This document shows, piece after piece, positions 707 through 8,666 of a stretch of DNA of 16,249 nt. The notes beneath the pieces are model-generated. The model worked only from the letters and a program-made list of their open reading frames with translations. It searched no databases and was not told the DNA's origin. The DNA lies in IMG/VR virus record IMGVR_UViG_3300035495_000018, positions 88,104 to 104,352 of that record, one strand, 5' to 3'. The position numbers and the translations under genes are program-made. Positions within the stretch are counted from its first letter, which is position 1. Every line of letters begins with the position of its first letter. The stretch is from a virus (Duplodnaviria > Heunggongvirae > Uroviricota > Caudoviricetes > Crassvirales).

Positions 707-860
707 TGCCAATCTACTAGAACCTAATGAAATACTAATAGCTAAATCAGAAGGATACACAGTACTCAGAGAAAGGCTTACAGATGGTTCTATCAAAACC
801 TCTGTAGTAGTACCTCTTGAGGAGTTTGTATCTAAGACTAAAGATGAGAAAGATAACTGA
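654..860 (+). CDS. Small hypothetical protein (68 aa; start may be the ATG at 678)
   Basis: ORF overlapping both neighbours and filling the gap between the holin-like and amidase genes. Confidence 0.6.
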   Translation: MGKVKIGSMKHKILVEGDANLLEPNEILIAKSEGYTVLRERLTDGSIKTSVVVPLEEFVSKTKDEKDN

Positions 861-1254
861 AATCATAGTACATTGCAGTGCTACTCCTGAAGGTAAAGAC
901 TACACAGTAGCTGATATTGACAAGTGGCATAAAGCAAGAGGCTTTAAATGTATAGGTTACCATTATGTAGTATACAGAGATGGTACTTATCACAGAGGTA
1001 GACAGGATTCAGAAGTAGGTGCTCATTGCACAGGACACAATTCCAATTCAATTGGAATCTGCTATATTGGAGGTGTAGCAAAGGATGGTAAGACTCCTAA
1101 AGATACAAGGACAGAAGCTCAAAAGAAAACACTAATATCTCTTCTTAGAACTATGAAGGCTAGATACCCTAATGCTAAAATTTATGGTCATAGAGACTTC
1201 GCTAATAAGGCTTGTCCATCCTTTGATGCTACTACAGAATACAAGGATATTTAA
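844..1254 (+). CDS. N-acetylmuramoyl-L-alanine amidase endolysin (T7 lysozyme / Amidase_2 family)
   Basis: Family motifs IIVHCSAT, IGYHYVV, GAHCTGHNSNSIGICYIGG and YGHRDF..KACPSFD, including the His/His/Cys zinc ligands. Start reassigned from 817 to ATG 844 (MRKITEIIVHC), the usual N-terminus of the family. Confidence 0.93.
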   Translation: MRKITEIIVHCSATPEGKDYTVADIDKWHKARGFKCIGYHYVVYRDGTYHRGRQDSEVGAHCTGHNSNSIGICYIGGVAKDGKTPKDTRTEAQKKTLISLLRTMKARYPNAKIYGHRDFANKACPSFDATTEYKDI

Positions 1255-2357: not shown

Positions 2358-2394
2358 AACACCCATAGGGTCAATACCTTATGGGTGTTTTTTT
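2358..2394 (+). terminator. Rho-independent terminator
   Basis: AACACCCATAGGG-TCAATA-CCTTATGGGTGTT stem followed by a T run. Confidence 0.9.
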
Positions 2395-2497: not shown

Positions 2498-4298
2498 ATG
2501 AGAATTATAGAAGAAGATGATACTGTAGTTAGAGAAGAAAAGAAGGAGTATGCCTCTAGGGGTGTTGGTAATGCAGGCCTCACACTGGGTAAACTTTAAT
2601 TATGCTCAGTATAAACTCCCTTAATTGCTGGGAACTCCTAATAGGACAATCAGCAGCTAAGACTTAATTTTTCATTTATACTCTTGCAAGTTCCAATAAT
2701 ACCTAGTATATTTGTAAAAAATAAATTAGGTATGGTAGGAACAATTTACAGATTTGAATCCCCTTCTGGTAAGTCCTATATTGGACAAACAGTAGATGCT
2801 AGAAGAAGAAAAGCAGAATTTACTAATTTTGATGGTAAATACTCTGGTAAAAAGTTTGATAATGCTAGAAGAAAATACGGACCTGACTCTTTCAAGTATG
2901 AAGTATTAATTCAACTCTATAATATAGATAGAGAAGAATTAAGAAGACAGCTTGATGAAATGGAAATATACTTTATTAAGAAGTATGATTCGTATCACAA
3001 TGGTTATAATATGACTGAGGGAGGTTCTGGTTCTAAAGGCTGTTTTCAAACTGAGGAAAGTAGAAAGAAGATTAGCTTAAAAGCAATTGGAAAACCTGGT
3101 ACTTTCAAAGGTAAACATCACTCAGAAGAAACTAAAAAGCTTCTTAGTGAATATGCTAAAACAAGAATAGGAAGTAAGAATCCTTTCTATGGTAAGAAAT
3201 GTCCTGAAAGTACAAAGGAAGCTTTGAGAAAAGCTAATGGGATACCAGTTATACAGCTTGATTTAGAAGGAAACTTTATTAAAGAATTTCCTACAGCTAG
3301 AGATGCTGCCAATAGCTTTGGTAAGCCTAGAGCTAATTCTGATATAATTAAAGTCTGTAAGAATTATGTGTCTCCCTCAGGAAAACATTATAAAACTGCA
3401 CTGGGTTATAAATGGAAATATAAGGAAAGTTCAACGACTATTCCGAAAGGAAGTACATTACAAGCTAATGGTAATGGAAATGGGGAGTACTCAATAGAGT
3501 AAAGATATAGTCTCAACAATATAGTAATATATTGAAGTTCATAAGAGAACTGCATAGAACTTGCGACTCTATGTGAAGATAATGATAATCGGTACTGCAC
3601 TTGGTGCTTATGCTCTTAGTGGTAGAAACAATGGTTGGAACCTATTTGGCAGCAATGCCTCTATGCCTGAGAATGTAAATATCCTAGCTTCAGGTCTTGG
3701 TGCTGCTAATGGTACTAATGCTCCTACTGCTTTCCAAGCTTGGGAACAAGGATGTGACAATTACCTAAAGGCTACTACTAACTTCTATGAAGGTATGCTA
3801 TCTGAACAGGAGCAAAGATTTAGTGACAGACAGACTCTAGATAGTCAACTATTCAGTGTTTGGAAGTCTCAAGTAGATGGTGACTTTGGTCTATATCAAA
3901 GCCAAAGAAATGGTTTTGATGGTCTAAACAAGAAGCTCAATGAAAGTGCTTTTGCCCTTTACAAGAGTCAGAGAGATGGATTTGATGCTCTCTCAGGTAG
4001 AATATCTCAACTCGAAACTAAGCAGGCTGTAGCTGATGCAGTAGAGCCTTGGAGAGCTAAGGTTCTTGATATGCAGATTAACTGCGTAAATAATGCTGCA
4101 CAGAGTGGTATTGCTCTAGAAGCTGAGAGAAGGTGCTGCAATGATGGTAAGATTGTCAACTATGCAAATAGCACATTCTATCCTATTGCTGTAGCTAATG
4201 TGACTACTGGTACTACTACAACTCTGAGAAATCTATTCAACCCACTTCAGGGTGGATGTTCTTGCAGCTGTGGTTCAACAGTACAACCTAACATCTAA
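2498..4298 (+). CDS. Intron-split hypothetical protein, join(2498..2590,3585..4298), 268 aa; Gly-rich hydrophobic N-terminal segment, helical repeats, Cys-rich tail
   Basis: Exon 1 MRIIEEDDTVVREEKKEYASRGVGNAGLTLG joins in frame to exon 2 IIGTALGAYALSGRNNG..., giving a continuous hydrophobic segment GVGNAGLTLGIIGTALGAYAL. The track's ORF 3561..4298 is exon 2 with a spurious TTG start inside the intron. Confidence 0.88.
2683..2714 (+). promoter_or_regulatory. Intron-internal Bacteroidetes-type promoter for the endonuclease
   Basis: cTTG (2683-2686), 20-nt spacer, TATATTTG (2707-2714), 17 nt before ATG 2732. Same layout (cTTGCA...TAnnTTTGTA) as the promoter at 13172-13203. Confidence 0.6.
2732..3502 (+). 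CDS. GIY-YIG homing endonuclease with NUMOD3 repeats and a C-terminal NUMOD1/IENR1-like HTH domain (256 aa)
   Basis: GTIY...SYIGQT, conserved Arg (RRRK), Glu (LDEMEIYFIK) and Asn (GYNMTEGG). NUMOD3-like units QTEESRKKIS, KGKHHSEETKKLLS, YGKKCPESTKEAL. C-terminal PVIQLDLEGNFIKEFPTARDAA...GYKWKY. Start moved from TTG 2684 to ATG 2732. Confidence 0.93.
   Translation: MVGTIYRFESPSGKSYIGQTVDARRRKAEFTNFDGKYSGKKFDNARRKYGPDSFKYEVLIQLYNIDREELRRQLDEMEIYFIKKYDSYHNGYNMTEGGSGSKGCFQTEESRKKISLKAIGKPGTFKGKHHSEETKKLLSEYAKTRIGSKNPFYGKKCPESTKEALRKANGIPVIQLDLEGNFIKEFPTARDAANSFGKPRANSDIIKVCKNYVSPSGKHYKTALGYKWKYKESSTTIPKGSTLQANGNGNGEYSIE
3885..3992 (+). repeat. Two-copy 66-nt (22-aa period) internal repeat in the intron host gene
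   Basis: FGLYQSQRNGFDGL (codons from 3885) and FALYKSQRDGFDAL (codons from 3951). A degenerate half unit FSVWKSQVDGD precedes them. Confidence 0.8.
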
Positions 4299-7157: not shown

Positions 7158-8666
7158 ATGGCAGGACAACTGAATAAATTTCAGACAGTTGGCTTCCAAG
7201 GTTGGGCACCTACTATCAGCAAGCTAAACCACATTTATTCTAATCCTGTATTTAGACAGGAGCCTCAAAAGGTATCGAATCTAATGGTTGAGCTCTTTGC
7301 TGCTAAAAGAGGTGCTTCTCTGGATTCACTTCTGTCTGGTCTGACTGTTAAGGAGTTTGAGAATGATGACAGATACTATTGGGATGTAGTAGGTTCTGTT
7401 AGAAGAAACATTCCTCTTCTAGAGGCTAGAACTCTTGAAGGCAATGTAGTAGCTTCGGATGATACAGTAGGAGCAGGTACTGAACCTTTCTACCTAGTAT
7501 TTGGAGAGCACTACTTCTTCGATGGTGAAGTAATCTTTGGTAACCTTAACCAAGTATATCCATTTAGAATTCTTGGTGATGCTAGAGTTGAAGGAACTCA
7601 CTACATCTATAAGGTAGAACTTATGGGTGGTAACACTACTGGTGTTCCTGGTGAAAGACTTCAAGCTGGTGAAAGGTTCTCTGTAGGTTTTGCACCTGTA
7701 GAAAGGGAGCTATCAAGAAGTGTTGGTGGTGTTAGATTTAACTCACCTGTATCTATGAGCAATGAGTGGACTACTCTTAGAATCAAGCATAAAGTATCTG
7801 GTGCCCTTCTTAACAAGAAGGTTGCAGTAGGTGTTCCTATGGAATCTGCTGATGGTACTAAGCATACCACTACTAACCTATGGATGCACAATGAGGACTA
7901 TGTACTTGAAAAGCAGTGGCAAGACTACAAGAACATTGCTATGGCTTGGGGTACTTCTAACCAAAATGCTAATGGTGAATATCTGAACTTCGGTAAGTCA
8001 GGTGAAGCTATTAGAATGGGCGATGGTCTTTATGCTCAACTTGAAGTAGCTAACACTACATATTACAATGACTTCAGCCTCAAGCTTATTGAGGATGCTC
8101 TATATGACCTATGTTACAATAGACCTGATGTAGAGAACAGAACCATTGTAATCAGAACTGGTATGAAGGGTGCTGAGCAATTTAGCAAGGCAGTAAATGA
8201 TACTATCTCTGGATGGACTAATCTTACTATCAATGCTGATAACCTTGGCATGATTAGAAAGACCTCAGGATGGCATCCTAATTCACTGGCTGCTGGTTAT
8301 CAGTTCACTGAATACAGAACTGCAAGTGGTCTTAACATTAAGGTTGAGATTGACAAGTTCTATGATGACCCTGTAAACAACAAGATTCAACACAGTCTTG
8401 GTGGACCTGCAAGTTCATATAGATATGATATTCTTGACCTTGGTTCTTCTAATGAGCCTAACATCTTTAAGTGTAAGCTCAAGGGACAGGATGAAATCAG
8501 AAGCATCCAACCTGGTATTAGAGACCCATGGACAGGTAAGACTAATGTAGACTATGCTTCTAATGACGAAGATGCATCAACCATCCACAAGATGACTACA
8601 TTTGGTATCTGTGTTCTTGACCCAACTAGAACAATGTCTATTATCCCTGCTATCCTGCAAGGATAA
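7158..8666 (+). CDS. Major capsid protein, crAss-like (HK97 fold; crAss001 gp32 equivalent)
   Basis: 502 aa, the size typical of Crassvirales MCPs. Motifs I associate with the family (YYWDVVG, GERFSVGFAPVERELS, GEAIRMGDGL, IRTGMKGAEQF, SYRYDILDLG). Followed by the canonical crAss-like structural gene order. Confidence 0.88.
   Translation: MAGQLNKFQTVGFQGWAPTISKLNHIYSNPVFRQEPQKVSNLMVELFAAKRGASLDSLLSGLTVKEFENDDRYYWDVVGSVRRNIPLLEARTLEGNVVASDDTVGAGTEPFYLVFGEHYFFDGEVIFGNLNQVYPFRILGDARVEGTHYIYKVELMGGNTTGVPGERLQAGERFSVGFAPVERELSRSVGGVRFNSPVSMSNEWTTLRIKHKVSGALLNKKVAVGVPMESADGTKHTTTNLWMHNEDYVLEKQWQDYKNIAMAWGTSNQNANGEYLNFGKSGEAIRMGDGLYAQLEVANTTYYNDFSLKLIEDALYDLCYNRPDVENRTIVIRTGMKGAEQFSKAVNDTISGWTNLTINADNLGMIRKTSGWHPNSLAAGYQFTEYRTASGLNIKVEIDKFYDDPVNNKIQHSLGGPASSYRYDILDLGSSNEPNIFKCKLKGQDEIRSIQPGIRDPWTGKTNVDYASNDEDASTIHKMTTFGICVLDPTRTMSIIPAILQG

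What the first reader, a model, noticed from the sequence alone, without database searches (positions are those of the whole stretch)
2498..4298. Complete group I intron splitting an uncharacterised membrane-segment gene rather than a DNA-metabolism gene
Seen in sequence: P1 (with U.G), P10, terminal G, P3, P4, P5, P7, P7.1, P7.2, P8 and P9 can all be paired. Removing 2591-3584 restores a 268-aa frame, joining ...GNAGLTLG|IIGTALG... The ORF track misses exon 1 and gives exon 2 a false start. Established: phage group I introns are mostly described in conserved core genes (T4 td, nrdB, nrdD; SPO1 DNA polymerase; also lysin and terminase genes). Inference: an intact intron with a homing endonuclease at this site implies the motif is conserved and common enough among co-infecting phages to sustain homing, so this hypothetical gene probably matters. 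No P2 is visible between P1 and P3, suggesting a compact variant.
Basis: partly seen in the sequence, partly recalled or inferred. Interest (0 to 1): 0.78.

Follow-up and report, generated by a model that had tools for sequence, protein, structure and literature searches.

The report
Self-splicing intron in crAss-like phage gene
A gut crAss-like phage has a conserved membrane-anchored protein gene interrupted by a mobile, self-splicing group I intron that carries its own DNA-cutting enzyme gene; the call is solid, but this is an ordinary example of a known kind of selfish element.

Summary
Exon 1 is 2498-2590, the intron is 2591-3584 (994 nt), and exon 2 is 3585-4298. They join to give a 268-aa protein.

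Evidence for the junction and the ribozyme:
- Intron-less homologues at 86-88% identity read straight through ...GNAGLTLGIIGTALG...
- The ribozyme is a subgroup IA2-type group I intron. It lacks P2 and has P7.1 and P7.2 joined by GUA.
- An intact 256-aa GIY-YIG/NUMOD homing endonuclease gene (2732-3502) starts in the P6a loop and runs about 80 nt into the core.
- Rfam scores the window only below threshold, in two pieces, because the ORF splits the model.
- An ORF-less homologue in the same gene of a related phage scores 85.9 bits.
- A profile of nine ORF-less relatives hits the window's two halves at E 2e-13 and 9e-34.
- P1, P3, P5, P6a, P9, P9.2 and P10 show compensatory changes.

The host gene is a conserved Crassvirales gene labelled 'putative tail protein' (KP06_gp61 homologue, >1300 relatives). 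Its function is unknown.

Group I introns are already documented in crAss-like phages. Earlier notes of this scan record two more in this genome, in the helicase and SPFH genes; I re-found only the helicase one. This is therefore a new member of a known kind.

One extra result: three separate lineages of this intron family occupy three splice points within 6 nt of this gene. All three lineages carry related endonuclease genes.

The parts
2358..2389 (+). Terminator-like hairpin plus T-run that closes the upstream unit; the split gene starts 109 nt later
2498..2590 (+). Exon 1 (31 codons, MRIIEEDD...GNAGLTLG)
   Evidence: N-termini of intron-less homologues P0004, P0005 and P0007 match it
2591..3584 (+). 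Group I intron, 994 nt, IA2-type, ending in terminal G3584
2584..2610 (+). P1 hairpin: 5' exon ACUGGGU (2584-2590) pairs with the internal guide GCUCAGU (2604-2610), with U2590.G2604 at the splice site. AUUAU 2599-2603 in its loop is the P10 partner of exon 2 bases 3585-3589.
   Evidence: P1 position -2 and P10 covary in relatives.
2615..2621 (+). P3 5' strand (pairs with 3482-3488)
   Evidence: 4 to 5 pairs with changes on both sides
2626..2655 (+). P4-P5 hairpin (P4 2626-2631/2650-2655; P5 2636-2639/2643-2646)
2656..2666 (+). P6/P6a 5' strand. It pairs across the ORF with 3421-3430.
   Evidence: the profile of ORF-less relatives breaks exactly here
2692..2740 (+). Hairpin that encloses the endonuclease start codon (AUG 2732-2734). 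This is the most conserved stretch of the insert (89-92% identity to L001 and L174). Probable translational control.
   Evidence: No covariation seen with only 3 sequences.
2732..3502 (+). Homing endonuclease gene, 256 aa: GIY-YIG N-terminal domain, then NUMOD3 and NUMOD1. Its last ~27 codons are read from P6a', J6/7, P7, P7.1, P7.2, P3' and P8.
3421..3430 (+). P6a/P6 3' strand
3436..3512 (+). P7 (3436-3441/3507-3512), which encloses P7.1 (3442-3451, GAAA loop), the GUA linker (3453-3455), P7.2 (3456-3476), P3' (3482-3488), P8 (3489-3500) and J8/7
   Evidence: P7.2 changes from U-A to C-G in L001.
3517..3574 (+). P9 (3517-3534, GUAA loop), P9.1 (3537-3550) and P9.2 (3552-3574)
   Evidence: A 20-nt motif spanning P9.1 into P9.2 occurs in more than 116 viral contigs.
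3585..4298 (+). Exon 2 (237 codons plus stop, IIGTALGAYAL...)

Best explanation
Bases 2591-3584 are a mobile, self-splicing group I intron of the phage IA2 type. It interrupts a conserved Crassvirales gene for a 268-aa protein with a predicted membrane anchor and long helix (homologue of crAssphage KP06_gp61, annotated 'putative tail protein').

Splicing (inferred from structure and comparison, not observed as RNA):
- The gene is transcribed as one pre-mRNA.
- The internal guide GCUCAGU pairs with the end of exon 1 to form P1, with U2590.G2604 at the splice site.
- An exogenous guanosine bound in P7 attacks after U2590.
- P10 (2599-2603 with 3585-3589) and the terminal G3584 position exon 2.
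- The exons are ligated to give ...GNAGLTLG|IIGTALG...

Mobility (inferred by analogy with I-TevI-type enzymes):
- The P6a loop carries a GIY-YIG/NUMOD homing endonuclease gene. Its 3' end is read from the ribozyme core, and its start codon lies inside a conserved hairpin that probably limits its translation.
- In a mixed infection the enzyme would cut intron-less alleles near the conserved G-L-x-L-G-I-x-G-T-A-L-G coding stretch. Repair from the intron-bearing genome would then copy the intron in.
For: Exon continuity:
- Intron-less homologues P0004, P0005 and P0007 (86-88% identity) read ...GNAGLTLGIIGTALGAY... with no gap.
- L004 shows the uninterrupted DNA.

Ribozyme:
- RF00028 matches 2626-2731 (P4-P6, 25.1 bits) and 3309-3534 (30.1 bits; the real match there is P7 to P9).
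- The homologous ORF-less intron in the same gene in L005 scores 85.9 bits, E 9e-21, above the gathering score.
- An nhmmer profile of nine ORF-less relatives hits 2595-2671 (E 2e-13) and 3423-3586 (E 9e-34). These are consecutive in the profile, with the break at the P6a loop.
- Pair counts over 15 relatives show 13-15 of 15 canonical pairs and several pair types in P3 (its outermost pair, 2615-3488, excepted), P6a and P9.2, and 12-15 of 15 in P9. P5 is 14-15 of 15 at three pairs and 8 of 15 at the innermost. P4, P6, P9.1 and five of the six P7 pairs are invariant.
- RNAalifold on nine ORF-less relatives independently predicts P3, P4, P5, P7.2, P9, P9.1 and P9.2. 21 of its 44 pairs have changes on both sides.

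P1 and P10 are under selection:
- The Gly third codon position before the splice site covaries with the guide: GGGU/GCUC, GGAU/GUUC and GGCU/GGUC.
- P10 is AUUAU/AUAAU here and ACUAU/AUAGU in Dulem virus 41.

Endonuclease:
- NUMOD3 scores 44.2 bits, NUMOD1 28.6 bits, and GIY-YIG has E 4.8e-4.
- PHROG 314 'homing endonuclease' matches at E 4e-31.
- The frame is full length compared with relatives.

Patchy distribution typical of a mobile intron:
- 9 of the top 120 protein clusters start at the junction.
- 8 of 53 IMG/VR loci matched from residue 25-27, at the junction, and showed intron motifs or the intron's 3' end. L176 is a ninth.

Same genome and same order:
- RF00028 gives 63.8 bits at G000 50500-50749.
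- Group I introns in crAss-like phages are reported in PMC7886860.
Against: - No RNA evidence.
- The window itself does not reach Rfam's gathering score.
- P8 is short (3-4 bp) and P6a has a mismatch and an internal loop.
- About 80 nt of the core are also coding sequence, so translation of the endonuclease could compete with folding.
- Endonuclease activity and its cleavage site are unknown. The GIY-YIG Pfam score (20.8 bits) is just under the cut-off (22.6).
Confidence: 0.93

Rival explanations
1. The intron is real, but this copy is decaying. It no longer splices efficiently, so the host gene is a pseudogene or is made at low level.
For: P8 is short and P6a is imperfect. The related copy in Dulem virus 41 has a frameshifted endonuclease, so decay does occur in this lineage. 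There are no RNA data.
Against: Every core helix is intact. P1 and P10 are perfect or near perfect. Both exons are open and in frame. The endonuclease is full length. The gene is conserved in over 1300 relatives and is present once in this complete 104-kb genome.
Confidence: 0.05
2. It is not an intron. A free-standing GIY-YIG endonuclease gene has inserted into and split the gene, leaving two separately translated fragments or a dead gene.
For: Free-standing homing endonuclease genes are common in phages (my knowledge). Gene callers annotate the pieces as separate ORFs.
Against: The flanks of the ORF are homologous to ORF-less group I introns that pass Rfam's threshold. They carry covarying P1, P3, P6a, P9 and P10. 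Exon 1 is only 31 codons. The insert ends in G and follows a U.G pair, exactly in frame.
Confidence: 0.02

Closest known systems
Subgroup IA2 phage group I introns whose endonuclease ORF starts in P6a and runs through P7-P7.2 (DNA polymerase introns of cyanophage Pf-WMP3 and T7-like phages PhiI and W31; PMC3428280)
   Same: All of P1-P10 except P2. P7.1 and P7.2 are joined by G-U-A (window 3453-3455). The ORF begins in P6a and contributes P6a, P6, P7, P7.1 and P7.2. A short P10 and a U.G pair mark the 5' splice site.
   Different: The endonuclease is GIY-YIG/NUMOD rather than HNH. The host gene is a membrane-anchored protein of unknown function rather than a DNA polymerase. The host phage is a crassvirus.
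T4 td intron with I-TevI (from my own knowledge, not checked here)
   Same: A phage IA2 intron with a GIY-YIG endonuclease carrying a C-terminal DNA-binding module, encoded in the P6a loop. The start region is sequestered in a hairpin, which delays translation.
   Different: The td ORF does not extend into the core as far as I recall. td has a P2. The host gene is thymidylate synthase. No sequence-level comparison was made here.
Group I introns of crAss-like phages (Yutin et al. 2021, PMC7886860) and the two other introns noted in this genome (helicase, SPFH gene)
   Same: Same virus order and same class of element. They also occur in non-replication genes, for example the MCP gene. They cause the same annotation artefacts (split ORFs, false starts).
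   Different: [quoted passage not shown] This phage's MCP is closest to IAS virus and crAss001, which are beta group/Steigviridae. This host gene is not on that list.
Related group I introns at neighbouring rDNA sites, taken as circumstantial evidence for reverse splicing (reviewed in PMC3984707); multiple insertion sites in Bacillus cereus nrdE (abstract of PMC2248736)
   Same: Related introns sit at different positions of one gene, each next to a short sequence that pairs with the internal guide.
   Different: Here the three positions lie within 6 nt of a phage protein-coding gene, and they are occupied by three separate lineages that share one endonuclease family.

Membership tests
Group I intron (Rfam RF00028) | 5' splice site after a U that forms a U.G wobble with the internal guide in P1 | tested here: met
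   U2590.G2604 within a 7-bp P1. P1 position -2 covaries with the guide in relatives.
Group I intron (Rfam RF00028) | The intron ends in G (omega G) and exon 2 can pair with the guide region (P10) | tested here: met
   G3584. P10 is AUUAU 2599-2603 with AUAAU 3585-3589, with a compensatory change in L001.
Group I intron (Rfam RF00028) | Conserved core P3-P9, including J6/7-P7 and J8/7-P7' (the guanosine site) | tested here: met
   GUUCAACGACUA and AAGAUAUAGUC align to the model consensus. Covariation is seen in P3, P5, P6a and P9.
Group I intron (Rfam RF00028) | Score at or above Rfam's gathering threshold (50 bits) | tested here: not met
   The window scores 25.1 and 30.1 bits in two pieces because a 770-nt ORF splits the model. 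The ORF-less homologue L005 in the same gene scores 85.9 bits, and the window's halves match a profile that includes it at E 2e-13 and 9e-34.
Group I intron (Rfam RF00028) | Removal restores a continuous gene, as shown by intron-less alleles | tested here: met
   P0004, P0005, P0007 and L004 are continuous over GNAGLTLG|IIGTALG.
Group I intron (Rfam RF00028) | Guanosine-dependent self-splicing | not testable with these tools
This needs in vitro transcription or RT-PCR.
Subgroup IA2 | P7.1 and P7.2 joined by G-U-A (criterion as quoted in PMC3428280) | tested here: met
   P7.1 is 3442-3451, GUA is 3453-3455, and P7.2 is 3456-3476. Both hairpins are recovered by folding. P7.2 has a U-A to C-G change in L001. 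No formal subgroup classifier was run.
GIY-YIG homing endonuclease (I-TevI-like) | N-terminal GIY-YIG catalytic domain plus NUMOD-type DNA-binding modules | tested here: inconclusive
   NUMOD3 (44.2 bits) and NUMOD1 (28.6 bits) pass their cut-offs. GIY-YIG scores 20.8 bits against a cut-off of 22.6. The GTIY...YIGQT motifs are visible. PHROG 314 matches at E 4e-31. Cleavage activity was not tested.

The most novel reading that the evidence does not exclude
The Gly-rich stretch G-L-G-L-G-I-A-G of this gene is a recurrent landing site, colonised independently by at least three lineages of one intron family.

The exact phosphodiester follows a YUGGNU hexamer that pairs with the internal guide, not a fixed codon position:
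- UUG GGU|CUA (phase 0).
- CUU GGN U|UR (phase 1, one nt later).
- CUG GGU|AUA (phase 0, 6 nt later; this window).

That pattern is what guide-directed integration (reverse splicing followed by reverse transcription and recombination) predicts. Ordinary homing copies a fixed site and does not predict it. These phages also encode a reverse transcriptase (DGR) a few kb upstream.
Probability: 0.2. Interest if true: 0.65.

Novelty: new member of a known kind. Interest (0 to 1): 0.33.

Why it matters
Practical value:
- The finding corrects the annotation of a conserved crassvirus gene. Gene callers and GenBank records (for example Dulem virus 41) split it into a 30-aa stub, an 'endonuclease' and a 5'-truncated 'hypothetical protein'. 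About 8% of the closest database clusters of this family carry the false start.
- It adds a third group I intron, with a third endonuclease family, to one Steigviridae-like genome. This extends the known range of intron-rich crassviruses.

Possible wider value: several intron lineages and one endonuclease family pile up on a 6-nt spot. This offers a natural data set for asking how group I introns reach new sites (guide-directed integration or endonuclease-driven events) and how endonuclease genes move between ribozyme backbones.

Tried and rejected
- Rfam at gathering threshold on the window gave no hit. This is explained by the ORF.
- Function of the host protein is unresolved:
  - Pfam and PHROGs gave nothing.
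  - A profile search of PDB sequences gave only chance-level hits.
  - AlphaFold2 with 39 homologues gave mean pLDDT 61 and pTM 0.22. The model is a helix at 23-40 (pLDDT under 50), one confident long helix at 77-215, and a disordered Cys-rich tail. I did not send it to fold search, because a single helix gives meaningless matches.
  - The ESM Atlas returned only 'putative tail protein' clusters.
  - hhalign against the slot-equivalent crAss001 gp27 ('lysis regulatory protein') found no similarity, so a spanin- or lysis-type role is only a positional guess.
  - The crAss001 structural atlas (PMC10172136) does not mention a homologue among the terms I searched.
- A custom covariance model was not built. 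The alignment has 372 columns, well above the largest size (190 positions) for which the tool quotes a calibration time. I used nhmmer and pair counts instead.
The junctions are therefore read by eye.
- Clade A relatives in other genes (L105, L050) were inspected to see whether they follow the same hexamer. Their guides differ, so this gave no extra support for guide-directed insertion.
- An intein or a group II intron was considered and dropped. The insert is not in frame with the exons, and the RNA core is group I.

Full report
**What the window is.** The window is the last 16.2 kb of a 104,352-bp viral record. It encodes a Crassvirus major capsid protein (7158-8666, Pfam Crass_capsid, E 2e-170). 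That protein is closest to IAS virus (65.7%) and crAss001 (59%), so the phage is Steigviridae-like, beta group.

**Observation.**
- An ATG at 2498 opens 31 codons ending ...GGC CTC ACA CTG GGT at 2590.
- Joining 2590 to 3585 gives a 268-aa frame ending at 4298.
- The mechanical ORF list has no exon 1 and gives exon 2 a TTG start at 3561, inside the intron.

**Exon junction.**
- A search with exon 2 alone found 1326 relatives, mostly 255-295 aa.
- The closest full-length ones (P0004, P0005, P0007; 86-88% identity) read ...KGVGNAGLTLGIIGTALGAYALS... without interruption. Their N-termini match exon 1.
- The corresponding DNA in L004 is continuous.
- The junction is therefore correct to the codon. 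With the U.G pair and the terminal G it is correct to the nucleotide.

**The ribozyme, database evidence.**
- Rfam finds nothing at gathering threshold.
- At permissive threshold, RF00028 matches 2626-2731 (model positions 60-138, P4-P6, 25.1 bits) and 3309-3534 (30.1 bits). The convincing part of the second match is GUUCAACGACUA ... AAGAUAUAGUCU plus the P9 hairpin.
- The reason for the low scores is a 770-nt ORF between the two halves.
- Relatives of the host gene whose called proteins start exactly at the junction (P0002, P0008, P0021 and others) turned out to carry homologous introns at the same spot. Some of these lack an ORF.
- The 257-nt ORF-less intron of L005 scores 85.9 bits, E 9e-21.
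- A profile built from nine ORF-less family members (alignment A2) hits the window in two pieces that are consecutive in the profile. These are 2595-2671 (positions 23-99, E 2e-13) and 3423-3586 (positions 104-274, E 9e-34).
- The break is the P6a loop, so the ORF sits in P6a.

**The ribozyme, structure.**
- I mapped the window's helices on a 15-sequence alignment with the ORFs cut out and counted pairs.
- P3 (its outermost pair, 2615-3488, excepted), P6a and P9.2 keep 13-15 of 15 canonical pairs, with two to four pair types per position. P9 keeps 12-15 of 15. P5 keeps 14-15 of 15 at three pairs and 8 of 15 at the innermost.
- P4, P6, P9.1 and five of the six P7 pairs are invariant.
- RNAalifold on A2 independently predicts P3, P4, P5, P7.2, P9, P9.1 and P9.2. 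21 of its 44 pairs are compensated.
- P7.1, P7.2 and P8 are too variable in length for the automatic alignment. They fold in the single sequence, and P7.2 changes CAUUAC/GUAAUG to CAUCAC/GUGAUG in Dulem virus 41.
- P1 differs between host genes, as expected. Within this gene its position -2 covaries with the guide: GGGU/GCUC in the window, L005 and L174; GGAU/GUUC in L006; GGCU/GGUC in L008 and L097.
- P10 covaries between the window (AUUAU/AUAAU) and Dulem virus 41 (ACUAU/AUAGU).
- The architecture matches the published description of IA2 phage introns (PMC3428280): no P2, P7.1 and P7.2 joined by GUA, and an ORF that starts in P6a and is read through P6a', J6/7, P7, P7.1, P7.2, P3' and P8.
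- The lack of P2 is thus normal for this family, although some members (L104, L163, L111) do have one.

**The endonuclease.**
- The ORF 2732-3502 encodes 256 aa with GIY...YIG motifs, NUMOD3 and NUMOD1. It matches PHROG homing endonuclease families.
- It is full length relative to L174 and L006.
- The Dulem virus 41 copy is frameshifted in an A-run near its end.
- The start codon lies in the 3' arm of a hairpin (2692-2740). This is the best conserved part of the insert (89-92% identity).
- By analogy with I-TevI (my knowledge), this hairpin probably restrains translation so that ribosomes do not unfold the core.

**The host gene.**
- It is syntenic with crAssphage KP06_gp61, 'putative tail protein'.
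- It has no Pfam, PHROG or PDB relative.
- It is modelled as a low-confidence helix at residues 23-40 covering the hydrophobic Gly-rich stretch (a probable membrane anchor), one long helix at 77-215, and a Cys-rich tail.
- It occupies the slot of crAss001 gp27, 'lysis regulatory protein', but shows no detectable homology to it.
- Its role is open. The intron sits in the coding sequence of its most conserved N-terminal motif.

**Context and novelty.**
- Group I introns are documented in crAss-like phages, including in the MCP gene (PMC7886860).
- Earlier notes of this scan record introns in the helicase and SPFH genes of this same genome. I re-found the helicase one at 63.8 bits.
- A 20-nt P9.1-P9.2 motif of this intron occurs in more than 116 viral contigs, including jumbo phages. 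The 3' core also matches introns in crAssphage cr53_1 DNA polymerase, Enterococcus phages and Lak phages.
- The finding is therefore a well-supported new member of a known kind.

**Extra observation: three splice points within 6 nt.** Introns in this gene use three different splice points.
- After UUG GGU (L005, L137, L139; L138's 3' junction is the same but its 5' end is cut off).
- One nt later, after CUU GGN U (L006, L141, L008, L097, L174, L104, L163, L176).
- Six nt after the first, after CUG GGU (window and Dulem virus 41).

**Extra observation: three lineages, one endonuclease family.**
- A maximum-likelihood tree of 125 3' ribozyme halves puts the same-gene introns in three separate, well-supported clades, mixed with introns from other genes. 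Starred branches force at least four label changes.
- Related endonucleases (40-63% identity, same ...KWKYKE(S/G)STT end; the frameshifted Dulem virus 41 copy has lost that end) occur in all three clades.
- L174 combines a window-like endonuclease cassette with a clade-B ribozyme.
- This points to repeated colonisation of one hot spot and to exchange of the endonuclease cassette between ribozyme backbones.
- Whether the exact site is chosen by guide pairing (reverse splicing) or merely filtered by the need to splice cannot be decided here. P1 complementarity is required of any working intron. The guide does co-evolve with the exon, which weakens the reverse-splicing argument.

Noticed in passing
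window 2584-2590/3585; L005 2740-2746/3004; L008 2640-2647/2920; L006 about 2080-2090; L174, L104, L163, L176: Homologous introns in the same gene use three splice points within 6 nt (phase 0, phase 1, phase 0). Each follows a YUGGNU hexamer that pairs with the internal guide. The 1-nt difference follows the Leu codon choice (UUG G.. versus CUU GG.).
   Followed up: partly
L174 1592-2358; L176 1447-2400; L006 2212-2913; window 2692-3502: Related GIY-YIG endonuclease genes, with a conserved upstream hairpin, sit in three phylogenetically separate ribozyme lineages at this locus. L174 is a mosaic of a window-like cassette in a clade-B ribozyme. This suggests that the endonuclease cassette is exchanged between introns.
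   Followed up: partly
L001 (Dulem virus 41, PP511520.1) 3170-3993: The endonuclease of the orthologous intron is broken by a frameshift in an A-run. The GenBank record annotates it as an 'endonuclease' plus a small overlapping hypothetical protein. Exon 1 and exon 2 are annotated as separate hypothetical proteins.
   Followed up: partly
window 2692-2740: A strong hairpin encloses the endonuclease start codon. It is the most conserved part of the P6a insert. It is a possible translational brake like the one known for I-TevI.
   Followed up: partly
Viral-contig loci L009-L124: A 20-nt P9.1-P9.2 motif of this intron is exactly conserved in more than 116 viral contigs of 4 to 313 kb. Several contigs carry 2-3 copies. 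This marks a very widespread phage intron family.
   Followed up: partly
G000:C1:50500-50749 (-), locus L126: A second group I intron in the same genome scores 63.8 bits with RF00028. It lies in the region that earlier notes describe as the helicase intron.
   Followed up: no
L004 1-1032; upstream of the window in G000: A reverse transcriptase gene (RVT_1, the DGR noted earlier in this scan) lies a few kb upstream of the split gene, both in an intron-less relative and in this genome.
   Followed up: no
L008 2889-3617: The stored protein of this relative translates only with TAG read as Gln. This hints at stop-codon recoding in that phage.
   Followed up: no
window 817-1254 and 1340-2344: An Amidase_2 endolysin-like gene is followed by three small genes (one HTH_17-like, one PHROG 1365) just upstream of the split gene. 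In crAss001 the equivalent slot holds 'lysis regulatory' genes.
   Followed up: partly
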